Virus record (IMG/VR): IMGVR_UViG_3300011271_000009 | Span: 2,076 to 66,075 of that record | DNA: 64,000 bases | DNA from: a virus | Direction: 5' to 3' (one strand) | Part shown: positions 8,302 through 58,253 of the stretch, one piece after another | Position numbering within the stretch: position 1 is the first letter of the stretch | Layout of the letters: each line of letters opens with the position of its first letter | Position numbers and translations under genes: made by a program | The notes under the pieces: model-generated | The model's input: the letters and a program-made list of their open reading frames with translations, nothing else | The model's database searches: none | Told to the model about the DNA's origin: nothing

Positions 8302-9061
8302 AACGACAACTGCGCCCACGGGCGCGACAACCACAACGCCTACACCCTACGAGCTGACCTTGGCCGATGGCACCGTCATCAAGGCGGCCAACCAAGACGA
8401 GGCCATCAAGGTGATGGCCAAGATGAAGGTGGACACTGCCAATGCGCTGCGGGAAGCCAAGGAGAATGCCGAACAGTTGCGGCAGCAGAATGCTAACCTG
8501 ACAGCCCAGATCAACGCTGCACCCAAGCCACAGCCTGCCAAGCCGCAGGAAAAGAATGGATTCGACAACGACCGCTACTGGACGTTGCTCAACAGCGACC
8601 CGATGGAAGCCCAGAACTACCTGGACGCCCACCGCTTTGGCATCGAGGACCCCAAGCAGGTGCCGCAGCAGTTCGCGCAGATGCGTCAGGAAGTTTCCGA
8701 GATGCGGCAGCAGGCCATTGCGGCCCAGTTCTATCAGCACCGCGCTGAGGAATTTCCGGCTGAGCCACAGGCTGTGCGGTCGGTCTCGCAGCGCTTCCAG
8801 GAGCTGGTGAACCAGGGCTTCCCGGCTAACGCGCTTACGCTGGACTTCGGCTATACGCAGCTGGTCAATGAGGGGGCGATCAAGCCGCTGGAGAAGAAGC
8901 CTGCTGCTACGGGCACCACGGCTGAGCCTGAGCAGCAGCCCAATCCAGCACTCACTGGCGCGGGCGGGACTCCTCCAGCAGATTCTGAGCTGGATAAGTT
9001 CTCGAAGATGAACAGCACAGAAATGGAAGCTTGGCTGCGCGACAAGGGGATGTTCAAATAG
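8294..9061 (+). CDS. putative capsid scaffolding protein
   Basis: ATG after GGAGAGG; coiled coil with Pro-rich linkers; lies between portal and MCP. Confidence 0.65.
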   Translation: MPETTTAPTGATTTTPTPYELTLADGTVIKAANQDEAIKVMAKMKVDTANALREAKENAEQLRQQNANLTAQINAAPKPQPAKPQEKNGFDNDRYWTLLNSDPMEAQNYLDAHRFGIEDPKQVPQQFAQMRQEVSEMRQQAIAAQFYQHRAEEFPAEPQAVRSVSQRFQELVNQGFPANALTLDFGYTQLVNEGAIKPLEKKPAATGTTAEPEQQPNPALTGAGGTPPADSELDKFSKMNSTEMEAWLRDKGMFK

Positions 9062-44699: not shown

Positions 44700-44881
44700 C
44701 GGCTTCCTCGTCTGAATCGGGCGATACATTCGTGGGCATCCTCGCAGGCGGAGCAGACCACATAGCCGCAGTTGGCGCACTTGAAGCGGTGGCGGCTGCA
44801 GTAGGACTGGCCGCAGTCTACGCAACACATCTCGTTGGTTTCGTCGGTGAGGCAGTCCGGGCTGTTGCATGGGCAAGCCAT
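44696..44881 (-). CDS. Cys-rich zinc-finger protein
   Basis: multiple CxxC motifs. Confidence 0.6.
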   Translation of the reverse strand: MACPCNSPDCLTDETNEMCCVDCGQSYCSRHRFKCANCGYVVCSACEDAHECIARFRRGSR

Positions 44882-46152
44882 CAGGCAACCTGCTCCAGCT
44901 GGAAGTTACGTAGCTTGGCTTCATCAGGATGGTTGGGAGTGCGCGGCCTGTAGAGTCCGCTCTCTGGTGATGCGCTGCGCCAACAGATATCGAAGAACGG
45001 GCATACGCCAGGCCGCAGACAATTGCCATGGCCGGTCTCCATGCGGAACTCCTTATCTAGCTCACCCTCGATGTAGGCGTCATTGAGCCGTGGCATGGTC
45101 TGAATCTGCTTAGCCAGCTGCAGTGATGTGATATGCGTAGCAGCTGCGGCGATCCGCTGCTCCTGATAGATTGAGCTGCGCTTCCACATCTCGACGTGGT
45201 AGTCACTGCGGATAATAGGCGGCAGGCTCACGAACTGCTTGGCCAGGGTCTCGGGGTAGTTGGACTGCAGATAATTCACCCAAGCACTGATGCCGCCCGG
45301 CTCATTGCTGGCCATGGAGCGCTGCCACCCCTTGCCCAGCCTGTGGTTCCTGCCGTCCGGGCCGGTCCACTCGTAGACACCTGAGTACTGGGTGCTGAAG
45401 GGAGCCCCCTCGTCGTTCTTCCAGCACCAGAACAGTGGGCTGTTGTGATACGAGTCGCCGCTGCCCCTGGGGTACTCCACCTTCCGCGATCCCTTGATGA
45501 GGCCCTCGATGATGACGCCATGGATCTTCACGCCCAGCCGCTCATCGGTGGGAATGACCTCGGTGAGGGTCTGGGGGTCGTACTTCCACTGCTCCCGCCA
45601 CGTGCTGTTGGCATCAGCGGTGGTCTTGAAGTTCAGGATGTAGTATTCGCGGCTGATACGGTGGCGCAGGATGGCGTCGGCCCGTGTCAGCAGCCGCATA
45701 TCATCGGCGATCTCGGTTGCATCCTCCAGCTCGACAGCAACGATCTCGTACTCGGCCATGATCTGAGGCAGCCGCACCAGACACCAGCCCTTCACCAGGC
45801 ATTGGATCATGGTGATCTGCTCTTCGACCTGCCAATTAGGCGCTCCGATGATGACGCCCACGGTCTCATCACAGCCATCGAAGTAGTCAGGCATGACACC
45901 GCGCTCGTTCACCGTACGTGCGAATTCTTCCTGCGCGACCTGGATGGCAGCATCGATGGTGTCAGGCTTCAGCGTGCCCAGCTTGACATGCTCCAAGATT
46001 GTGCCCAGAGGCTGGTGGATCATGCTGCCGGTCAGCAGGGGCAGCGACATGGCAGTACGCTCCAGGCCCCGGCCTTTGTATTCAAAGCCCCAGTAGCGTT
46101 GCCTCATACAGTGGTCAGCGGCCTCGCGGCGGCTTCTATCAACGACGATCAT
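44881..46152 (-). CDS. PD-(D/E)XK Cas4-like exonuclease
   Basis: N-terminal C, RADAIL...LNFKT, C-terminal C...CPFFDIC Fe-S pattern. Confidence 0.75.
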   Translation of the reverse strand: MIVVDRSRREAADHCMRQRYWGFEYKGRGLERTAMSLPLLTGSMIHQPLGTILEHVKLGTLKPDTIDAAIQVAQEEFARTVNERGVMPDYFDGCDETVGVIIGAPNWQVEEQITMIQCLVKGWCLVRLPQIMAEYEIVAVELEDATEIADDMRLLTRADAILRHRISREYYILNFKTTADANSTWREQWKYDPQTLTEVIPTDERLGVKIHGVIIEGLIKGSRKVEYPRGSGDSYHNSPLFWCWKNDEGAPFSTQYSGVYEWTGPDGRNHRLGKGWQRSMASNEPGGISAWVNYLQSNYPETLAKQFVSLPPIIRSDYHVEMWKRSSIYQEQRIAAAATHITSLQLAKQIQTMPRLNDAYIEGELDKEFRMETGHGNCLRPGVCPFFDICWRSASPESGLYRPRTPNHPDEAKLRNFQLEQVA

Positions 46153-46504: not shown

Positions 46505-46674
46505 GCCGCTTCCTTGCATAAGGGGCACAGACCCCCGCTCAACCTGGTCTCGCGGCAGCGCCTGCCGCAGAGGCTGCACTTCGATTCTGGCTCGCGCCGT
46601 TCTGCCTTCTTTTGGAAGGCGCTGCTCCCCCGTTTTATACGCGCAGCGTGGTTATCTCTATGGCCCTTACCCAT
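46501..46674 (-). CDS. small basic zinc-finger protein
   Basis: MGKGHRDNH...CSLC...CPLC; overlaps the TROVE stop. Confidence 0.55.
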   Translation of the reverse strand: MGKGHRDNHAARIKRGSSAFQKKAERREPESKCSLCGRRCRETRLSGGLCPLCKEAA

Positions 46675-48007
46675 TGGAAGTCTCCGCCGCCCGGATGTAT
46701 TCCACGATGGCCTCGCTCCAGCCGTCGATATGGGTCCACTTGCCGTAGCCCACACCATTCTGGTAGCAGGCCACGTTCACCATGTAGCCGTGCTCGGCGA
46801 GGGGGGCACCCACAGAATCATGGGCCTGCTCATCGGTGATGACGATGATGCGGTCATAGTGGATGTTCTGCTGAGCAGCCAGCTGCTTGAGCTGCTGTAG
46901 GCTATGGCCGAGCTGCGTACCGCCGCTGTAGGCTGACCGGATCATGTTGGCCAGGGCAAAGCCGTGCCGGGGCGCAACTTCAGCAAGAGAGTCCGAGAAG
47001 GTGTAGACATCGCACTTCTCCACGATCTCGCGCAGAATGATGGCCAGTCCGCAGGCGGCATCCAGCCGGTCGATCTCGCTCTTGGCGCTGACCTTTGCCC
47101 CCACCATGGAGCCCGAGGTATCAATCACCAGTGCGGTGCGTCCAGGCAATGCTTCTGCGCCCTGCAGAACCCGCAACATAGCAGCGTCCAGCTCTCCCTC
47201 GAATACCGGGGCATGTTTGGCAGCGCTGATGAAGCGGAAGGGCAGAACCTGCCGGAAGGGTGCCAGCTGTAGGCAGCGCTCGATGAGGACACGGTCCACG
47301 CCGCAGTCGTGCATGTTGCGCAGATTGCGGAGCAGGGCCAGGTCGCCGAGCTTGCCTTCCTTGATGAGCCGGGTGAAGGTCTCCTTCTTGTCCTGACCGG
47401 CGCTGAGCGCCACTTCCCAGGTGTCAGGAGCAGGCAGCGTACCCTGCACCAGCTGCTTCCAGACTAGGGCTTGATCGCCATCCTTGGGCTTGGCGTGCGA
47501 CATGAAGAGGGCATCGCGCAGCTTCCAGGCTTCGTCGCGGTTGTACTTGGCCAGCCGGTAGGCGTCGAATTTGGTGAAGGCCTTGGCGATGCCCTTCTTC
47601 ACCTGGGCGCTGAGCGGCTGCCGCTTCTCCTTGTTGTAGATGGCCAGGAATTCGGTGATCTCGTCGGGCCGCTCGATCACCATCTCCAGGATATCGGCCA
47701 CCAGCAGCCGGTGCCCCTGGGGGCCGCGTGCCATCTCCCGTACCAGCAGGAGCGGCACATGGCGCAGGTGCATCTTGTGGCGGCACCAGACTGCCATATC
47801 GCCCACGGCTTTGGCGTCCACATGGGGCACCAGCTGGGCGATGCGTTCCCCGATCTCGACACCGTCCTCGTAGAAGGTGTCCTCCCACAGCAGGCAGGCC
47901 ATAGTGGACCGGCGTAGCTGTTGCTCCTCTGAGATGCGTTTGGCTGGGCCGCCTTCATGGGTGGCCAGGATGGGCGCGGAATGCCGCGCAGTGTTAAGAC
48001 GTGCCAT
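46667..48007 (-). CDS. rsr: Ro60/TROVE RNA-binding protein with vWA domain
   Basis: THEGGPA, LLWEDTFYE, KYNR, TWEVALS, ALLRNLRN, MIDAS IDTSGSM, IVITDEQ. Confidence 0.92.
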   Translation of the reverse strand: MARLNTARHSAPILATHEGGPAKRISEEQQLRRSTMACLLWEDTFYEDGVEIGERIAQLVPHVDAKAVGDMAVWCRHKMHLRHVPLLLVREMARGPQGHRLLVADILEMVIERPDEITEFLAIYNKEKRQPLSAQVKKGIAKAFTKFDAYRLAKYNRDEAWKLRDALFMSHAKPKDGDQALVWKQLVQGTLPAPDTWEVALSAGQDKKETFTRLIKEGKLGDLALLRNLRNMHDCGVDRVLIERCLQLAPFRQVLPFRFISAAKHAPVFEGELDAAMLRVLQGAEALPGRTALVIDTSGSMVGAKVSAKSEIDRLDAACGLAIILREIVEKCDVYTFSDSLAEVAPRHGFALANMIRSAYSGGTQLGHSLQQLKQLAAQQNIHYDRIIVITDEQAHDSVGAPLAEHGYMVNVACYQNGVGYGKWTHIDGWSEAIVEYIRAAETSNG

Positions 48008-48027
48008 GGTTCCCTCCTCGCAGAATT

Positions 48028-48130
48028 TGTGGATATATCACGACTGCACAGCGAGGGGAAGGGTTGGAACCAACTTATCCACAGGGGTATTCCCGAAGTG
48101 GGAAGAAGTTCCCGTTATGGCACCACCACA
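48028..48130 (-). ncRNA. Y-RNA-like module G (degenerate)
   Basis: UGUGG/CCACA closing stem, UGGUGCC, ACUUCU. Confidence 0.5.
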
Positions 48131-48399
48131 CTGATCTTTTTAAGGCTGCACCGTGATGAGTAAGGGCCTTGGGACCCCTGGGCGGGCACGGTGCAGCCTC
48201 TTGTGCCGGTGATCCTCCCCGCCCAACCTTATGCTGCGCAGCTGTGTTTCTCTAGGGAAGCGTAGACAAACCCCGTGCTGCGCTCTCCGCAGCCACCATG
48301 CAACCACGCAACGACTTATTCCGGGATGCTTTGCGCACATTTGAAACTGCTGGGGGACTGCCAGGCCCCACAGCTTTCAGGTACATCCCGGAAACTTGC

Positions 48400-48522
48400 C
48401 TTTGGGAGAACGGTTGAAAGCAGCGTTGTCTTCGACCTCCGGTTTACAAACCCGGCGCTCTGTCTGAGCTATAGCGCCATACAAGCGGCGTTAGAAGTAA
48501 CTGCTTCCTGCACTACCCAAAG
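48400..48522 (-). ncRNA. Y-RNA-like module F with tRNA D arm and Thr(UGU)-like anticodon arm
   Basis: CUUUGGG/CCCAAAG, UAGUGCA, GUUACUUCU, GUUCU; UAGCUC-AGACA-GAGC; CCGG-G-UUUGUAA-A-CCGG-AGGUC. Confidence 0.72.
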
Positions 48523-48712
48523 TGAACTTGGTGAGCGCCAAAGCCTTGTCCGCTGTGCCATCGCTGGTATGGGTCTCTATCTCCCCCAGCAGGGCCTGCT
48601 TGGCTGGTCAGCCACTCGCTACCCACCGCTCACCAAACTTTGATGAGGCAGCGCCCGCGCCTCGCGGGGGAGTCCATCCCTGGATGTCTCCTGCGCTGCC
48701 CCATAACAGTGA

Positions 48713-48811
48713 TCCGAGGAATGGACGGCTGCAGTCTGCTGGGTGCGACCCCAGCCACTTGGATTGTGTCCAAGCTCTAGCCGAGAAGTATCTGCTGCCT
48801 TCACCATCGGA
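48713..48811 (-). ncRNA. Y-RNA-like module E with tRNA-core-like three-hairpin cargo
   Basis: UCCGA/UCGGA, UGGUGAA, AUACUUCU, AUUCC. Confidence 0.65.
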
Positions 48812-48820
48812 ACAGCGTTA

Positions 48821-48894
48821 GCAGCGGGGAACGGACGCCTTCGGAGCTGGTTTCTATTATGAGTAGAAGTAACCGAGGGCTGCACCACCGCAGC
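48821..48894 (-). ncRNA. minimal Y-RNA-like module D with CAU anticodon stem-loop
   Basis: UGGUGCA, GCCCUCGG/CCGAAGGC, UUCUA-CUCAUAA-UAGAA, GUUCC. Confidence 0.72.
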
Positions 48895-49030
48895 AAGGGT
48901 GTTTCTGGCAGCAGGCCGGTACGGTGGCGTTCAGTGACGTAGAGAGAGCTGCAGTCACTCCGTCAGTGTTCTCCGCACCCGCGAATACCGGCACACCGGA
49001 TTTAGAGCGTGCTTTGCTGCCAGAAAGTAT

Positions 49031-49176
49031 TCTGCGAGGAACGGATGCATCGGGGGTTTTCTGGCTCTGCTGCTCTAGCCGACTGAGCTACGCCTCCCAC
49101 TGGGGGCGGCGGCTGGATTTGAACCAGCGACCTACAGCTTTGCTATAGAAGTAACCCGCTGCTGCACCATCGCAGA
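49031..49176 (-). ncRNA. yrlA: YrlA-type Y RNA (module C)
   Basis: Ro-stem scaffold enclosing T arm GCUGG-UUCAAAU-CCAGC, a hairpin-closed acceptor stem, then D arm UAGCUCAG...GAGC (permuted tRNA order). Confidence 0.82.
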
Positions 49177-49184
49177 GATGCTAA

Positions 49185-49264
49185 CTGTGGAGAACAGTTG
49201 CGGTCGGGTGAGCCTTGCGGCCCTTCTTTTCAAGAGAAGTATCCGACTGCTGGCACTACCACAG
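49185..49264 (-). ncRNA. Y-RNA-like module B with UGA(Ser) anticodon stem-loop
   Basis: CUGUGG/CCACAG, UAGUGCCA, CUUCU-CUUGAAA-AGAAG, GNRA hairpin, GUUCU. Confidence 0.72.
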
Positions 49265-49275
49265 CGGTAAAGCTA

Positions 49276-49453
49276 TGCTAGGGAAGATTGCTCGGCGTGG
49301 CCTCCAGTACTCATAGCGCGTGGCTGGCCGTGTCACAGCCCTTTGGACTCGCGGCTACGTCTCCCTTGGCCGACTCTCCCCCCATCGACGCTGGGGGCTG
49401 CCAGCGCCTATGGCGGGGGAGTTTTGAAGTAACGCCTTGCTGCACCACTAGCA
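49276..49453 (-). ncRNA. Y-RNA-like module A with large multi-hairpin cargo
   Basis: UGCUAG/CUAGCA, UGGUGCA, GUUACUUC, UUCC. Confidence 0.68.
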
Positions 49454-49529
49454 GAAATCTTGTGTTGCTGTGCTACGTTGTCCTGCTGAATCAGCAACGC
49501 ACTCAAGCGGCGTCCAGCAAGACTGGAAT

Positions 49530-49558
49530 ACCCTACGCCTGTTTTCTGAAAGCGTCAA
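49530..49558 (-). promoter_or_regulatory. sigma70-like promoter for RNA array and Ro60
   Basis: TTGACG-N17-TAGGGT. Confidence 0.6.
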
Positions 49559-49584
49559 GCAAAAACTGTAGCAGCATGTCATCG

Positions 49585-49614
49585 TTGCGTCCAGTTCCTG
49601 TACTGTGCTAGGTT
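49585..49614 (+). promoter_or_regulatory. divergent sigma70-like promoter
   Basis: TTGCGT-N18 with TGn extended -10 TAGGTT. Confidence 0.45.
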
Positions 49615-54972: not shown

Positions 54973-55193
54973 ACAGCCTCCTTCAAATCGCGCTCCGCGA
55001 GGTCCTGCACCAGTTTGAACTGCACGGCGGTGATGATCCGCAGAGCCACTGCGTTCATGTAGAAGGCCCACTCTTCAGTGGTCAGCGGGCCTTCCTTGGC
55101 CAGCAGCCCGCAGGCGTGCTGAAATACGGCGATGCAGAACTCCTCCCGCCGCTGCTGACGCTGCGCCTGTTTGCTGATAGGTGTGTTGTTCAT
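54969..55193 (-). CDS. hypothetical protein
   Basis: ATGA overlap with the integrase stop. Confidence 0.6.
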   Translation of the reverse strand: MNNTPISKQAQRQQRREEFCIAVFQHACGLLAKEGPLTTEEWAFYMNAVALRIITAVQFKLVQDLAERDLKEAV

Positions 55194-56335
55194 GGCCGCA
55201 CCTCCTCGACTACGGGCTCAGTGACACCCACCATGCGCTCTAATTCAGCGGCCTGCCGCAGGTGGCGCGTGTCTACCGCATCCACCACAGCCATGCGGCG
55301 CTGACGGCGGACATGCGAGTAACGCCGCCAGGTCTCGTCATCCTTCTCGCTGTGCCCGACCAGCTCCTTGCCCGAGGCTTCTGACAGCGTAGGATTCTCA
55401 GCCACATTGGTAATGAAAGTGTGGCGCAGATCGTGGAAACGCAGCTTGGCCAGCTGCGGGAACTCGGCAGCAGCCTTCTTGCGGATAGCGATGAAGACGC
55501 CGCGCCAAGTGCTACGCGGCGCACTGGGCCGTGTGGCCACGCAGAACACATAGTGCCCTGGTGCGCCTCCGCCTAGGCGCTGAGTCAGCTGCAGCTGCTC
55601 TGCCAGAATGCGCTGCGCCGTCTCATTCAGCTCCACGAAACGCTCGCTGTCCTTGGTCTTGGCGCTGCCCTTGAGGACTTCCACCCACTTGACCTCACGG
55701 TCGATGTGGATGTCCTGCCAGCGCAGATACTTCAGCTCACAGGAGCGCATCCCTGTGTTCAGAGCCAGCTCGATGATGGCTGCGATGGGATGCCAGCGTT
55801 CCTCGCTCCATGCGGTTTCGATCAGGTGGACTGTCTCCTCGGATGACATCGCCCAGCCCGTGCGTTCGTTGTTGGGAGGCAGGGCTTTGATGTCCTCGGT
55901 GAATTTGTGCCAGAGCTTGGCCCTCCTCAGAGTCTGGCGAATCGCGCACAGATCAACATTCAGCGTGGAGTTTGCGACCGTCTCCAGCCGCTTGCGCATG
56001 AAGGCCCGCAGGTCATCCACGCTCAGCTTGTGGACGGGCTTGGTTGCCAGCTCTGGGAAGAGCCGCAGGACTGAGACTGACCGCCTGTAGGACATGCGGC
56101 TGGACTCCTTGATGGACCACAGCGGGTCGCTGATGAGCTGCTCCATGGCTTCGATCAGGGGCAGCTTGGCAAAGGGCTGATGACTGGCACTCAGCTTACC
56201 AGCGTGCGCGTCAGCGATCAGCTGCTTTTCCAGGTTGTAGGCTTCTCTTTTATCGCTGGTCTTCAGCGATACCTCGTAACGTTTGCCATGCACGGTGAAT
56301 CGGGCGTGGTATGTGTCTCCTCGTTTGCGTAACAT
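55190..56335 (-). CDS. int: tyrosine recombinase/integrase
   Basis: N-terminal arm-binding YHARF...SLKT; GMRSCEL, K, HDLRH, VGH, RRY catalytic set. Confidence 0.92.
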   Translation of the reverse strand: MLRKRGDTYHARFTVHGKRYEVSLKTSDKREAYNLEKQLIADAHAGKLSASHQPFAKLPLIEAMEQLISDPLWSIKESSRMSYRRSVSVLRLFPELATKPVHKLSVDDLRAFMRKRLETVANSTLNVDLCAIRQTLRRAKLWHKFTEDIKALPPNNERTGWAMSSEETVHLIETAWSEERWHPIAAIIELALNTGMRSCELKYLRWQDIHIDREVKWVEVLKGSAKTKDSERFVELNETAQRILAEQLQLTQRLGGGAPGHYVFCVATRPSAPRSTWRGVFIAIRKKAAAEFPQLAKLRFHDLRHTFITNVAENPTLSEASGKELVGHSEKDDETWRRYSHVRRQRRMAVVDAVDTRHLRQAAELERMVGVTEPVVEEVRP

Positions 56336-56340
56336 AAAAT

Positions 56341-56604
56341 GCACCTCCTATAGTGCGCTCATTGGGGCCAGCAAGCTGGGCACTGTCTCCAGTGCCATGC
56401 GGGTGTATTGGGCAGCCTACTAACCCCAGTGGAGCCATCCAGCGGCGCGTGGGAGGCAGGGGTTGCCGCCGTGACATGTGGGCACGACGCCCCTCTGGGC
56501 TTTTGGCCCAGCCCGTTGAATGGCTCCGTAGGCTCCAGCTCTGCGCTCCGTCAACCCCCCAGGGTCGCTGTTGCTTGGTTGAGCTGGAACCTACGCGGCC
56601 ATTC
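56341..56604 (-). ncRNA. highly structured RNA upstream of integrase
   Basis: 16-bp helix with G-U pairs (56363-78/56413-28), GAGA tetraloop hairpin, long helix 56518-56604. Confidence 0.6.
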
Positions 56605-57224: not shown

Positions 57225-57698
57225 CTATGCTCCCCTTTCGCTGGCCACCCAAGCCAGCGAAGCCTCATCGGCATCTGCGTAACGCGTCTGGTCTGCTTGG
57301 CCAGGATTGCGCTGACTGCCGTAAGTAGTCTCATGCCGGTGTGTGCCACAGTGCAGGCACACGGTGTGAAATGTCATCGTCGTACCACCACGGCTCCATA
57401 CGCCGGGATTCTCTTTGACGCCACCGACTACTTCATAGGGCGCTTCCCACTCATGCTCATTACCATCGGCGCACTCTGGGACTTCCGGCTCTGGCCCGGC
57501 CTCTACTTCGTCCCGCTCCTGTTCGCCGGTATAGTCGCCGTCTGCGCCCAGTGCGGCACACCATACTGTGACCATCACACGGCTGTCATAGCTTCCGCTA
57601 GCAGCCCAATCCCGCGCTTGCACCATCGCGGCATCCATACTCTCGGCGTCAATAATTTCCCTTGCGCCACCATCTTCGCGTATCTCGTACTTAGCCAT
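57225..57698 (-). CDS. acidic hypothetical protein
   Basis: HEWEAPYEVVGG...NPGVW...CLHCG. Confidence 0.7.
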   Translation of the reverse strand: MAKYEIREDGGAREIIDAESMDAAMVQARDWAASGSYDSRVMVTVWCAALGADGDYTGEQERDEVEAGPEPEVPECADGNEHEWEAPYEVVGGVKENPGVWSRGGTTMTFHTVCLHCGTHRHETTYGSQRNPGQADQTRYADADEASLAWVASERGA

Positions 57699-57755
57699 AA
57701 GAATCCCCCTCGCCCTCACTGGACGCCCCCGCTTACCTGTGCGTCCTGCCTACAT

Positions 57756-57784
57756 TTGACGCGCCGTGCGCAGCGTATCATACT
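57756..57784 (+). promoter_or_regulatory. sigma70-like promoter, probably giving leaderless mRNA
   Basis: TTGACG-N17-CATACT, ATG 7 nt downstream, no SD. Confidence 0.6.
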
Positions 57785-57791
57785 TCAGCCT

Positions 57792-58253
57792 ATGACCGCA
57801 TCTATTCCCGAACTGCTGGGCGTCCGCGAGCTGGCCCGCCGCTTGAGCATGAGCCAATCCGCCGTGCGCCGCTTTGCCTACAGGGGGCAAATCCCCTTTG
57901 TCAAGATCGGTACCCGCCTGCTCTTCGAGCCTGCCTCTGTCGAAGCGTTCCTCAACCAGCACCGCAAGGTGGCTGACCCCATCAGTGCCTCTGACATCCG
58001 GCAGGCGTTGGGCATCCCTGCAGCAAACCGACCCAGGGGTCTAGCTCGCCCACGCGTCGAACTGGAAGAGCCCACTCAAAGCACCGGGCTCTTTGCGGCA
58101 GCTCCAGCTGAGCTGATAGGCCCAGCCCCTTCGATCCAGCCCAACGAGATCACGCGAGAAGCATCCGAGCAGCCCCAGCCCGATCAACCGCCTGCGGACC
58201 CTGCCCAGCCCTTCCGCGATGCCTTCCGGAAGGCGCTGGGAACACAGCCCTAG
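57792..58253 (+). CDS. excisionase-like HTH_17/MerR-type DNA-binding protein with disordered tail
   Basis: LLGVRELARRLSMSQSAVRRFAYRGQIPFVKIGTRLLF. Confidence 0.8.
   Translation: MTASIPELLGVRELARRLSMSQSAVRRFAYRGQIPFVKIGTRLLFEPASVEAFLNQHRKVADPISASDIRQALGIPAANRPRGLARPRVELEEPTQSTGLFAAAPAELIGPAPSIQPNEITREASEQPQPDQPPADPAQPFRDAFRKALGTQP

What the first reader, a model, noticed from the sequence alone, without database searches (positions are those of the whole stretch)
48439..49239. Y-like RNAs display perfect tRNA anticodon stem-loops: possible decoys for anticodon nucleases
Module D has UUCUA-CUCAUAA-UAGAA (48852-68), a 5-bp stem with the Met CAU loop. Module B has CUUCU-CUUGAAA-AGAAG (49223-39), the Ser UGA loop. 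Module F has a D arm and a UUUGUAA Thr UGU loop (48439-55). Both perfect cases use the conserved ACUUCU as the 5' stem strand. Host defences and toxins (PrrC, RloC, VapC, PARIS) cut anticodon loops, and the Salmonella rsr-yrl-rtcB operon responds to tRNA damage. Hypothesis: Ro60-protected anticodon decoys or sensors form an anti-defence system.
Basis: partly seen in the sequence, partly recalled or inferred. Interest (0 to 1): 0.88.

Follow-up and report, generated by a model that had tools for sequence, protein, structure and literature searches.

The report
Anticodon-like hairpins on phage Y RNAs
Small RNAs encoded beside a soil phage's Ro60 gene carry hairpins that obey the sequence rules of tRNA anticodon arms. 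I find the same feature in several hundred related RNAs of phages and bacteria, so it is real and selected, but the proposed role as a decoy for tRNA-cutting defence enzymes is untested.

Summary
The three hairpins exist as described, on the minus strand. They lie in an array of six (perhaps seven) Y-RNA-like modules upstream of a phage Ro60 (TROVE+vWA) gene. Each hairpin follows the conserved linker YUAC-UUC, where published YrlA work places a "less conserved variable (V) stem-loop".

In 131 phage and 125 bacterial YrlA-type modules, chosen without regard to the loop, the hairpin sits at exact tRNA spacing from the T arm. It has a covarying 5-bp stem and a 7-nt loop: U33 about 90%, purine-37 80-92%, A38 81-85%, positions 34-36 free.

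The loops also follow finer tRNA rules. U36 goes with A37, G36 with G37, A34 is avoided, and the triplets track real phage tRNA anticodons.

Modules B and D are minimal units, a Ro60 handle plus this hairpin. About a third of 120 such short modules are anticodon-like, against about 6% in shuffles. F is a unique permutation.

The anticodon mimicry is therefore supported and apparently undescribed. The nuclease-decoy function stays speculative, was partly anticipated for Salmonella YrlA (Hughes 2020), and must also fit chromosomal bacterial copies.

This scan noted phage Ro60 with Y-like RNAs before on other DNA.

The parts
46667..48007 (-). Ro60/Rsr ortholog gene, 446 aa, with TROVE and vWA domains
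   Evidence: Pfam TROVE E 4.5e-15, VWA_2 and vWA_Ro60. PHROG 850 RNA-binding protein, E 1e-40. 43-58% identical to Ro60 genes on other phage contigs.
49275..49453 (-). Module A: Y-like handle with a large, unclassified G+C-rich apical domain
   Evidence: 5' motif at 49426-49447 and 3' strand at 49277-49290. Fold. No apical-helix partner was found by my script, so the boundaries are approximate.
49185..49264 (-). Module B: short module made of a handle, the anticodon-like hairpin and a GCAA-capped hairpin
   Evidence: nhmmer motif hit. Apical helix GCAGUCGG/CCGACCGC. Minimum-free-energy fold. Homolog L004-84 has the same layout with loop GCUGAAA.
49223..49239 (-). B hairpin CUUCU-CUUGAAA-AGAAG: 5 bp, 7-nt loop, U33, 'anticodon' UGA, A37, A38
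49211..49222 (-). B second hairpin GGCC-GCAA-GGCU, capped by a GNRA tetraloop
   Evidence: A tetraloop-capped second hairpin recurs in L004, L003, L017, L023 and L036.
49032..49175 (-). Module C: full YrlA-type module in the order hairpin, T arm, closed acceptor-like hairpin, UA, D arm
   Evidence: Rfam YrlA partial match at 49066-49136, 36.2 bits, E 1.3e-5, below the gathering score of 69. Fold z-score -3.4.
49131..49149 (-). C hairpin at the anticodon-like position: 8 bp with an AAA triloop, not anticodon-like
49111..49129 (-). C T arm with loop UUCAAAU
49072..49110 (-). C closed acceptor-like hairpin (49091-49110) and D arm (49072-49088)
48821..48894 (-). Module D: minimal module made of a handle and the anticodon-like hairpin only
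   Evidence: nhmmer hit at 17.8 bits. Apical helix GCCCUCGG/CCGAAGGC. The minimum-free-energy and centroid folds are identical.
48852..48868 (-). D hairpin UUCUA-CUCAUAA-UAGAA: 5 bp, 7-nt loop, U33, 'anticodon' CAU, A37, A38
   Evidence: The same loop occurs in short module L243-68 and in several YrlA-type modules.
48713..48811 (-). Module E: handle with a degenerate tRNA-like apical domain. The hairpin at 48758-48774 has 6 bp and a 5-nt loop.
48400..48522 (-). Module F: handle with the helix CUUC/GAAG closing three hairpins, namely an acceptor-like hairpin, a D arm and an anticodon-like arm followed by AGGUC
   Evidence: No module with this layout was found among 235.
48439..48455 (-). F anticodon-like arm CCGGG-UUUGUAA-ACCGG: 4 bp plus a G.A mismatch, U33, 'anticodon' UGU, A37, A38
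48457..48490 (-). F D-arm-like hairpin (48457-48469) and acceptor-like hairpin (48475-48490)

Best explanation
The flagged hairpins are the anticodon-arm-like element of Ro60-associated Y-like RNAs.

**Anatomy of a module.** Each module has a 'handle', the presumed Ro60-binding part. The handle is a basal stem, a conserved internal loop (5' GGYGNAG opposite 3' YGUUCC), and an apical helix. After the handle comes the conserved linker YUAC, then a hairpin whose 5' strand starts with an invariant UUC.

**Full-length (YrlA-type) modules.** Here the hairpin lies 4-5 nt upstream of the T arm. This is the exact position of an anticodon arm followed by a class-I variable loop (usually AGGUC). The loop keeps the generic anticodon-loop signature (Y32, U33, R37, A38) while the triplet varies. 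The RNA is in effect a whole tRNA body, closed at the acceptor end and joined to the Ro60 handle at the hinge between the D and anticodon arms.

**The window's modules.** B and D are stripped-down modules that keep only the handle and this hairpin. F is a one-off rearrangement that shows a D arm plus an anticodon arm.

**Most likely mechanism (inferred).** The modules are made as one precursor upstream of Ro60, processed, and bound by Ro60 through the handle. The free end presents a non-chargeable tRNA or anticodon-arm mimic to proteins that read tRNA anticodon arms. It either competes with real tRNAs for those proteins or tethers them to Ro60.

**Shown versus inferred.** Shown: the anatomy, the conservation, the covariation and the tRNA-like loop rules. 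Inferred: transcription, Ro60 binding and the existence of a protein partner. Unknown: the partner's identity.
For: **Context.** A TROVE+vWA Ro60 gene lies directly downstream on the same strand. Six modules share the 5' motif. The apical handle helix has a complementary partner in 83 of 88 homologous modules, each with a different sequence.

**Survey near Ro60.** Of 88 modules, 38 carry a hairpin of at least 3 bp with a 7-nt loop, U33 and R37 at this site, against 7.2 +/- 2.5 in dinucleotide shuffles. In 235 unique modules from 98 loci the counts are:

| Class | Observed | Shuffled expectation |
|---|---|---|
| Short modules | 41 of 120 | 6.6 +/- 2.5 |
| YrlA-type modules | 70 of 115 | 9.4 |

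**Loop-blind sample.** The pattern was GGTTACTTC, 18-26 free bases, then GGTTCGANTCC, so the loop sequence played no part in selection.

| Measure | Phage contigs | Bacterial genomes |
|---|---|---|
| Unique spacers | 131 | 125 |
| Spacer length 21-22 nt | 92 | 87 |
| At least 4 of 5 stem pairs at tRNA spacing | 110 | 97 |
| U33 | 102/110 | 86/97 |
| R37 | 101/110 | 78/97 |
| A38 | 93/110 | 79/97 |
| Y32 | 83/110 | 91/97 |

Among the 110 phage hairpins there are 72 distinct loops and 63 distinct stems, and 36 different triplets among the 97 loops that have both U33 and R37.

**Register control.** 97 of 110 phage loops have U33 and R37 at the true register, against 9-35 when the window is shifted by 1-3 nt. 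In that sample 92 of 123 loci hold Ro60, and 100 of 101 modules lie on its strand.

**Covariation** (alignment A1, 44 sequences). The hairpin helix is 90.9% paired. Its two inner pairs show compensatory changes in 12 and 21 sequences. The covariation score is 0.567 against 0.181 in shuffles, 0 of 500 shuffles reaching it.

**Finer tRNA rules.**
- U36 is followed by A37 in 53 of 56 loops, and G36 by G37 in 24 of 26.
- A34 occurs in 4 of 97 loops (p 1.5e-7 against composition). Real tRNAs nearby have A34 in 18 of 484.
- Triplet counts correlate with those 484 real tRNA genes: rho 0.64 over all 64 triplets and 0.58 over the 52 that occur in them.

**Gene finders are fooled.** ARAGORN calls tRNA-Thr and tRNA-Met on modules of L075. 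GenBank annotates a CcrColossus module as tRNA-Gln.

**Literature.** YrlA is a crystallographically proven tRNA mimic that carries tRNA modifications.
Against: - No transcript, processing or binding data exist for this uncultured phage.
- The hairpin loop is not anticodon-like in many modules. These include the window's own full-length module C (AAA triloop) and module E (5-nt loop).
- In short modules like B and D only about a third are anticodon-like, and many stems are 3 bp, which RNAfold leaves unfolded.
- In the Salmonella YrlA crystal structure the handle itself occupies the anticodon-stem position, and that RNA has no such hairpin. In three dimensions the phage hairpin could therefore project as a variable arm rather than stack under the D stem.
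- The three outer stem pairs rest on the invariant UUC and are often U.G pairs.
- The modules are evolutionarily related, so counts overstate the number of independent events.
Confidence: 0.6

Rival explanations
1. The anticodon-like hairpins are Ro60-held decoys, competitive inhibitors or tripwires for anticodon-loop nucleases (the PrrC, RloC, VapC, colicin or PARIS type). A multi-module array would give a phage protection against several such defences. This is a specific case of the best explanation.
For: - The generic anticodon-loop signature is conserved while the triplet is free, and arrays carry different triplets: UGA, CAU and UGU in this window.
- The triplets are drawn from the real anticodon repertoire, with A34 avoided.
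- The closed acceptor end excludes any role in translation.
- Hughes et al. 2020 proposed that the YrlA tRNA-like domain, which the Salmonella SOS-induced anticodon nuclease does not cut, may competitively inhibit that nuclease.
- Bas63 gp130, a Ro60-fold phage protein, counters the Ppl defence (preprint).
- The Thermus phage phiLo authors propose that Ro60 with its Yrl RNAs captures host PNPase as a way to escape host defences.
- This genome has no tRNA genes and no RtcB of its own.
Against: - There is no direct test.
- The same hairpin is common in chromosomal bacterial loci across many phyla.
- Loops are replaced by tetraloops or triloops in many modules.
- Lys-UUU, the best-known nuclease target, is rare (2 of 97) and Tyr-GUA is absent.
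- Stems are generic (UUC...) and do not copy the cognate tRNA stems.
- gp130 rescued T7 on the Ppl strain without any phage Y RNA being supplied, and Ppl is not known to cut tRNA.
- Salmonella YrlA, the RNA for which the idea was first raised, has no anticodon loop at all.
Confidence: 0.15
2. The loops are handles or substrates for anticodon-loop modification enzymes: TrmD (m1G37), the t6A37 machinery, or MiaA. The modification could stabilise the RNA, or the RNA could sequester or recruit these enzymes.
For: - The 36-37-38 combinations are almost only UAA, GGA, AAA and CAA. These include the known determinants U36-A37 for t6A, G36-G37 for TrmD and A36-A37-A38 for MiaA (the determinants are from established tRNA knowledge; the counts are).
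- G36 is followed by G37 even in His-like and Gln-like triplets, which fits an enzyme rule better than copying of those tRNAs.
- YrlA is already known to receive tRNA modifications from TruB and DusA.
Against: - The same pattern would arise from simple descent from, or copying of, tRNA loops.
- No modification data exist for this hairpin.
- Many modules lack the loop.
Confidence: 0.12
3. Vestige or structural cap. The hairpin is what remains of the anticodon arm of the upstream tRNA in a dimeric-tRNA ancestor of YrlA. It is kept only as a stable cap or spacer, with no partner that reads the loop.
For: - The dimeric-tRNA origin model is in the literature.
- The loop can be replaced by UUCG, a triloop or other sizes.
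- Some modules hold nearly whole tRNAs. The L075 cargo is 86% identical to E. coli tRNA-Met genes.
- A module's triplet matches a tRNA gene on the same contig slightly more often than chance, 13 of 50 against 8.0 +/- 2.2, which hints at local copying.
Against: - U33, R37 and A38 are retained at 80-93% across phages and many bacterial phyla, while stems and triplets have turned over (72 loops, 63 stems).
- A cap has no need for the U36-A37 and G36-G37 rules or for avoiding A34.
- 7-nt loops are energetically poorer caps than the tetraloops these RNAs use elsewhere.
Confidence: 0.12
4. The hairpins are chance stem-loops with no significance.
For: Within the window alone the excess is modest: 3 observed against about 0.4 expected in the array strand, one of the three being a T arm. 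The B and D stems are A-U rich and weak.
Against: Recurrence at the same position in hundreds of homologs, with covariation and register specificity.
Confidence: 0.01

Closest known systems
YrlA (Y RNA-like A; Rfam RF02553; S. Typhimurium, M. smegmatis, mycobacteriophages; Chen et al. 2014 PMC4201824; Wang et al. 2018, 10.1101/312249)
   Same: - Encoded just upstream of Ro60/Rsr on the same strand.
- A terminal stem serves as the Ro60-binding part.
- The YUAY linker is conserved.
- The tRNA-like domain is permuted: T arm, closed acceptor-like hairpin, D arm. Module C matches the model core.
- The flagged hairpin lies where Chen et al. place the optional 'V' stem-loop.
   Different: - Published descriptions call that stem-loop a less conserved variable arm and state that YrlA lacks the anticodon loop.
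- Here, and in about 200 further modules, it follows anticodon-arm spacing and loop rules.
- Module C scores 36 bits, below the Rfam gathering score of 69.
- The 5' motif reads CGAUGG or GGUGNAG, not a clean GNCGAA.
YrlB / Yrn2-type Y RNAs (Salmonella, M. smegmatis, D. radiodurans; Chen et al. 2014)
   Same: These are second, shorter Ro60-bound RNAs encoded next to YrlA. They are long hairpins with a small loop and no T or D arms, like modules B and D.
   Different: The published examples are described as having a small pyrimidine-rich loop. B and D end in a 5-bp stem with a 7-nt anticodon-like loop after the YUAC linker. No sequence similarity was tested.
D. radiodurans Yrn1
   Same: Chen et al. 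model it with T and D features and a potential 'anticodon arm' with a 5-bp stem. A Y RNA showing an anticodon-like arm therefore has a precedent. Module F and modules such as L075-148 share the normal D-anticodon order.
   Different: The Yrn1 loop has 6 nt and no conserved anticodon-loop signature was reported. Its known partner is PNPase.
Thermus phage phiLo Ro60 with Yrl1/Yrl2 (NAR 2025, PMC12135203)
   Same: A phage Ro60 with two Y-like RNAs encoded upstream. Binding was shown in vitro, and an anti-defence idea (capture of PNPase) was proposed.
   Different: No tRNA-like or anticodon-like element is described there: the word 'anticodon' does not occur in the text.
Bas63 gp130, a Ro60-fold anti-Ppl counter-defence protein (PhageMaP preprint 10.1101/2024.10.10.617714)
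   Same: A phage Ro60-like protein next to tRNA or Y-like genes, with an experimentally shown counter-defence effect.
   Different: It is a distant protein, not found by tblastn with this window's Ro60. The effect needed no phage RNA. The substrate of Ppl is unknown and no link to anticodon nucleases is shown.
Phage-encoded tRNAs that resist or replace tRNAs cut by host nucleases
   Same: tRNA-shaped phage RNAs proposed to blunt tRNA-targeting defences (mentioned; otherwise from my own knowledge). Ro60 cassettes often lie within phage tRNA clusters: 89 of 254 fetched loci carry at least one ARAGORN tRNA call.
   Different: Those are functional, chargeable tRNAs. The Y-like modules have a closed acceptor end or no acceptor at all, and they carry a Ro60 handle.

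Membership tests
YrlA / bacterial-type Y RNA (RF02553) | Encoded within a few kb of Ro60/Rsr on the same strand | tested here: met
   The modules lie 390-1450 nt upstream of the Ro60 start on the minus strand. In relatives, 100 of 101 modules are on the Ro60 strand.
YrlA / bacterial-type Y RNA (RF02553) | Permuted tRNA-like domain: T arm, closed acceptor-like hairpin, UA, D arm | tested here: met
   Met by module C only (49072-49129). B and D lack it. E and F have other arrangements.
YrlA / bacterial-type Y RNA (RF02553) | Score at or above the Rfam gathering threshold | tested here: not met
   36.2 bits against 69, with only model positions 23-87 matched.
YrlA / bacterial-type Y RNA (RF02553) | Conserved YUAY linker and a 5' Ro-binding motif (GNCGAAN0-1G) in a stem formed by the two ends | tested here: inconclusive
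   YUAC or AUAC is present in all six modules. The terminal stems and the covarying apical helix are present. The 5' motif is only CGAUGG-like in C and E and differs in the others.
YrlA / bacterial-type Y RNA (RF02553) | Physical binding to Ro60, and dependence on Ro60 for accumulation | not testable with these tools
   Uncultured soil phage.
tRNA (RF00005) | Cloverleaf with a free acceptor stem that gene finders detect | tested here: not met
   ARAGORN finds none in the window. The best tRNA-model scores in the whole genome are 21.9 bits (F) and 16.2 bits (C), below 29.
tRNA anticodon stem-loop (as a structural mimic) | 5-bp stem, 7-nt loop, U33, purine 37 (usually with Y32 and A38) | tested here: met
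   B and D meet all of these. F has 4 bp plus a G.A mismatch.
tRNA anticodon stem-loop (as a structural mimic) | Position relative to the other tRNA arms: a 4-5 nt variable loop, then the T arm | tested here: met
   Met in homologous YrlA-type modules, where the spacer peaks at 21-22 nt, and in F relative to its D arm and AGGUC. It does not apply to B and D, which have no other arms.
tRNA anticodon stem-loop (as a structural mimic) | Stacks under the D stem and forms a U-turn loop in three dimensions | not testable with these tools
   In Salmonella YrlA the handle occupies that place. No structure exists of a module with the hairpin.
Anticodon-nuclease decoy / phage anti-defence RNA | Is cut by, binds or inhibits an anticodon nuclease, or protects the phage on hosts that carry one | not testable with these tools
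   Literature leads only.
YrlB / Yrn2-type short Y RNA | Long hairpin with a small apical loop, Ro60-bound, next to a YrlA | tested here: inconclusive
   B and D have that overall shape and lie next to module C. Binding was not tested. The loop type differs from the published description.

The most novel reading that the evidence does not exclude
Ro60 holds a set of non-chargeable anticodon-arm mimics, each with a different 'anticodon'. These act as competitive inhibitors, or as cleavage-sensing tripwires, for nucleases that attack tRNA anticodon loops. In infected cells the targets would be host defence nucleases. In bacteria that carry the same RNAs chromosomally, the targets would be toxin or SOS-induced nucleases. 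Tandem arrays such as this six-module one would then be multi-specific shields.
Probability: 0.15. Interest if true: 0.9.

Novelty: new variant of a known kind. Interest (0 to 1): 0.62.

Why it matters
The partner of the tRNA-like end of bacterial and phage Y RNAs has been an open question since 2014. Published work treats this hairpin as a poorly conserved variable arm and states that YrlA has no anticodon loop.

The hairpin in fact keeps U33, R37 and A38. It obeys the U36-A37 and G36-G37 rules, avoids A34 and uses real anticodon triplets, in both phages and many bacterial phyla. This points the search at proteins that read anticodon loops: nucleases, modification enzymes and perhaps others. 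It also yields simple tests, such as loop mutants, modification mapping and nuclease assays.

The result also bears on the proposed origin of these RNAs from a tRNA dimer, because it shows the upstream tRNA's anticodon arm still in place. Finally, it explains why tRNA finders and GenBank records mislabel some of these modules as tRNA genes.

Tried and rejected
- **Rfam at gathering thresholds.** Nothing in the window.
- **ARAGORN.** No tRNA in the window.
- **Consensus promoter and terminator scan of the array.** None found, so transcript ends are unknown.
- **First collection scan** (14 specified bases). Mostly chance hits: only about 19 of 117 loci held Ro60. I replaced it with a 19-base, loop-blind pattern.
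- **Neighbouring genes of Ro60 in this window.** None is conserved beside Ro60 in the other fetched loci, so no candidate protein partner came from synteny. The 423-aa protein just downstream has no Pfam or PHROG match.
- **RtcB in the genome.** None.
- **Homologs of module F's layout.** None among 235 modules, so F cannot be checked comparatively.
- **In-silico 'un-permutation'.** I excised the handle and opened the acceptor-like loop. My parser handled only 59 of 115 modules. ARAGORN called a tRNA in 40 of them, and the called anticodon was the hairpin's triplet in 22. This is weakly supportive and too crude to lean on.
- **Public sequencing runs.** Two soil metagenomes hold the DNA and may be its source. 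No RNA holder is listed.
- **D-arm reading of the 5' motif.** I considered that GNAG...GGUUAC-UUC folds as a D arm, as ARAGORN assumes in L075. I rejected this because the N5-GG segment covaries with the 3' strand of the handle in 83 of 88 modules.
- **Seventh module next to Ro60** (about 48050-48135). Its fold did not reproduce the module architecture.
- **Literature searches for Y RNA with anticodon-nuclease decoy.** No paper describes anticodon-like loops in Y RNAs.
Full report
**What is there**

The window comes from a complete 67.1-kb phage genome with direct terminal repeats. Two soil metagenome runs hold this DNA and may be its source. The phage carries an integrase and an excisionase-like gene.

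At 46667-48007 on the minus strand lies a 446-aa Ro60/Rsr ortholog with TROVE and vWA domains. The 1.6 kb upstream of it on the same strand (48008-49612) has no convincing ORF. It holds six modules, which I call A-F. Each begins with a shared motif of the form GGUG(N)AG, about five free bases, then G(U/A)UAC-UUC.

All features in the finding read correctly only on the minus strand. Hairpins B (49223-49239) and D (48852-48868) are perfect 5-bp Watson-Crick stems with 7-nt loops, CUUGAAA and CUCAUAA. F (48439-48455) has four pairs plus a G.A mismatch around the loop UUUGUAA. It is flanked by a D-arm-like hairpin and by AGGUC.

**Module anatomy**

Minimum-free-energy folds give every module the same plan:
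- a basal stem formed by the two ends;
- a conserved internal loop, 5' UGGUGNA opposite 3' CCGUUCC-like;
- an apical helix;
- a variable apical domain that starts with YUAC-UUC.

The apical helix is well supported by comparison. In 83 of 88 homologous modules the segment G-N5-GG has a complementary partner downstream, and the sequence differs from module to module.

Module C is a YrlA-type RNA. The Rfam YrlA model matches its T arm, closed acceptor-like hairpin and D arm at 36.2 bits (E 1.3e-5), below the gathering score of 69.

B and D have no tRNA arms. After YUAC they carry only the flagged hairpin, and B adds a GCAA-capped second hairpin. E has a degenerate tRNA-like domain with a 5-nt loop.

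F is closed by the helix CUUC/GAAG and holds an acceptor-like hairpin, a D arm and the anticodon-like arm. The tRNA model gives it 21.9 bits, the best tRNA-like score in the whole genome.

**Is it more than chance?**

Inside the window the excess is modest. Perfect hairpins of this kind occur at 0.24 per kb of strand. The array strand holds three, one of which is C's T arm.

The real test is comparative. Ro60 relatives were fetched from viral contigs and from named phages. A profile of the 5' motif finds 1-6 modules (mode 2) upstream of Ro60 in 98 loci, 238 modules in all. Arrays of six occur here, in L003 and in Caulobacter phage CcrColossus.

At the site right after YUAC, hairpins with at least 3 bp, a 7-nt loop, U33 and R37 occur as follows:

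| Sample | Observed | Shuffled expectation |
|---|---|---|
| First 88 modules | 38 | 7.2 +/- 2.5 |
| 120 unique short modules | 41 | 6.6 +/- 2.5 |
| 115 unique YrlA-type modules | 70 | 9.4 |

**A loop-blind sample**

To avoid choosing by the loop, I scanned collections with a pattern that specifies only GGTTACTTC, 18-26 free bases, and the T-arm core GGTTCGANTCC.

Of the 123 loci found to carry the pattern, 92 hold Ro60 in the fetched stretch. 100 of 101 modules lie on its strand, at a median of 334 nt upstream.

Spacer length peaks sharply at 21-22 nt (92 of 131). That is exactly what a 5-bp stem, a 7-nt loop, a 4-5-nt variable loop and the first three T-stem bases require.

I then counted back from the T stem as in a tRNA. 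The results for phage contigs and for the same scan of bacterial genomes are:

| Measure | Phage contigs | Bacterial genomes |
|---|---|---|
| At least 4 of 5 stem pairs | 110 of 131 | 97 of 125 |
| U at position 33 | 102/110 | 86/97 |
| Purine at position 37 | 101/110 | 78/97 |
| A at position 38 | 93/110 | 79/97 |
| Pyrimidine at position 32 | 83/110 | 91/97 |

Positions 34-36 vary: 36 triplets occur among the 97 phage loops with U33 and R37, and the 110 phage hairpins hold 72 distinct loops and 63 distinct stems. Shifting the window by 1-3 nt drops the U33+R37 count from 97 to 9-35.

On a gap-free alignment of 44 sequences the hairpin helix is 90.9% paired. Its two inner pairs change on both sides in 12 and 21 sequences. 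The covariation score is 0.567 against 0.181 in shuffles.

They come from Actinomycetes, Acidobacteriota, Clostridia, Paenibacillus, Bacteroidota, Verrucomicrobia, Myxococcota and Alphaproteobacteria.

**Finer tRNA rules**

- The loops follow the coupling seen in real tRNAs. U36 is followed by A37 in 53 of 56 loops and G36 by G37 in 24 of 26. G37 is almost absent otherwise.
- A34 is avoided: 4 of 97 loops, p 1.5e-7 against local composition. The 484 real tRNA genes in the flanks of the fetched loci have A34 in 18 cases.
- 95 of 97 triplets are ones used by those real tRNAs. Triplet frequencies correlate, rho 0.64 over all 64 triplets and 0.58 among the triplets present.
- Gene finders are fooled. 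ARAGORN calls tRNA-Thr(UGU) and tRNA-Met(CAU) on two L075 modules, and GenBank annotates a CcrColossus module as tRNA-Gln.
- One L075 module carries a whole cloverleaf 86% identical to E. coli tRNA-Met genes inside a handle.

**Relation to what is known**

Chen et al. 2014 described YrlA as follows: a 5' strand, the conserved YUAY, an optional 'less conserved' stem-loop V taken as the variable arm, the T arm, a closed acceptor-like stem, the D arm and the 3' strand. They also noted that each studied species has a second, short hairpin-type Y RNA.

[quoted passage not shown] The flagged hairpin is therefore, by connectivity, the 'V' stem-loop. By spacing, loop signature and triplet usage it behaves as an anticodon arm followed by a normal class-I variable loop. 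That fits the retained anticodon arm of the upstream tRNA in the dimer model.

I found no paper that says this. Absence from the searchable library is not proof.

The family shows several ways of joining a Ro60 handle to tRNA parts:
- at the anticodon loop (Salmonella);
- at the D/anticodon hinge (the common type here);
- at the acceptor end (L075-148, L108-121, L025-165);
- in place of the T arm (window F, unique);
- to a bare anticodon-like hairpin (B, D and about a third of short modules).

**Limits for the window's own hairpins**

- B and D belong to the heterogeneous short class. Seven nucleotides is the most common loop length there, but loops of 3-11 nt occur in my scan and many stems are only UUC/GAA.
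- B's closest homolog (L004-84) has C at position 33.
- The window's full-length module C has a triloop, and E has a 5-nt loop.
- The loop is thus frequently but not universally kept. Any function must tolerate its loss in individual modules.

**Function**

Nothing here tests function. My best inference is this:
- The modules are cut from one precursor. No internal terminators were predicted.
- Ro60 binds them through the handle.
- The free end presents a non-chargeable tRNA or anticodon-arm mimic to proteins that read anticodon arms, either competing with tRNAs or tethering the protein to Ro60.

The decoy idea is one specific case, and it has partial precedent:
- Hughes et al. 2020 suggested YrlA might competitively inhibit the SOS-induced anticodon nuclease of Salmonella.
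- A preprint shows that a distant Ro60-fold phage protein counters the Ppl defence, though without needing phage RNAs.
- The phiLo authors propose that Ro60 with its Yrl RNAs captures host PNPase as a way to escape host defences.

Against a phage-specific shield:
- The same hairpin is widespread in bacterial chromosomes.
- Lys-UUU is rare and Tyr-GUA absent among the triplets.
- Loops are lost in many modules.

The 36-37 rules equally fit recognition by TrmD, the t6A machinery or MiaA. I put the decoy reading at about 15%.

**Verdict**

- The structural interpretation (Y-like RNAs display anticodon stem-loops) is supported and generalised.
- The functional interpretation is untested.
- The RNAs belong to the known Ro60/Y-RNA system. 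The anticodon-arm character of the 'V' hairpin, the minimal handle-plus-hairpin modules and F's layout make this a new variant of a known kind.
- Earlier notes of this scan had already flagged phage Ro60 with Y-like RNAs on other genomes and led me to the Ppl preprint.

Noticed in passing
window 48902-49026 (-) and 48528-48705 (-): Between modules C and D lies a 125-nt element closed by a perfect 12-bp stem, with fold z-score -3.3. The 180 nt between E and F also fold strongly, -82 kcal/mol over 191 nt. Neither has the Y-like 5' motif. They may be a second class of RNAs in the same transcript.
   Followed up: partly
window about 48050-48135 (-): A possible degenerate seventh module lies directly upstream of the Ro60 start. 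It has GGUGGUGCC...GGGAAC-UUC (GAAC instead of UUAC) and a 3' GUUGGUUCC. The predicted fold did not reproduce the module plan.
   Followed up: partly
window 48143-48199: A perfect 13-bp inverted repeat with a 31-nt loop lies between module F and Ro60. It is not followed by a U-tract.
   Followed up: no
L143:1673-1740 (Caulobacter phage CcrColossus); L075:8726-8795 and 8982-9055: A GenBank 'tRNA-Gln' and two ARAGORN calls (tRNA-Thr, tRNA-Met) sit on Y-like modules upstream of Ro60. Some annotated phage tRNAs next to Ro60 are therefore probably Y-like RNAs.
   Followed up: partly
L075:8982-9055: One module holds an entire cloverleaf 86% identical to E. coli tRNA-Met genes, with anticodon arm UCGGG-UUCAUAC-CCCGA, enclosed by a perfectly paired 8-bp handle helix.
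   Followed up: partly
all fetched Ro60 loci: Ro60 plus its Y-like RNAs travels as a cassette. None of this window's neighbouring genes recurs beside Ro60 elsewhere. 89 of the 254 fetched loci (not all of which hold Ro60) carry ARAGORN tRNA calls, 484 presumed real tRNA genes in all.
   Followed up: partly
L259-L338 and further genome loci: The motif YUAC-UUC, hairpin, T arm is common in bacterial chromosomes of many phyla (Streptomyces, Amycolatopsis, Acidobacteriota, Clostridia, Paenibacillus, Flavobacterium, Sorangium, Caulobacter). I did not check whether these sit in prophages or beside chromosomal rsr genes.
   Followed up: partly
whole genome (G000): The phage has no tRNA gene above threshold and no RtcB. 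It is probably temperate, given the integrase and excisionase-like genes at 55190-56344 and 57297-58253.
   Followed up: partly
window 44881-46152 (-): The 423-aa ORF immediately downstream of Ro60 has no Pfam or PHROG match and no relative beside Ro60 in other loci.
   Followed up: partly
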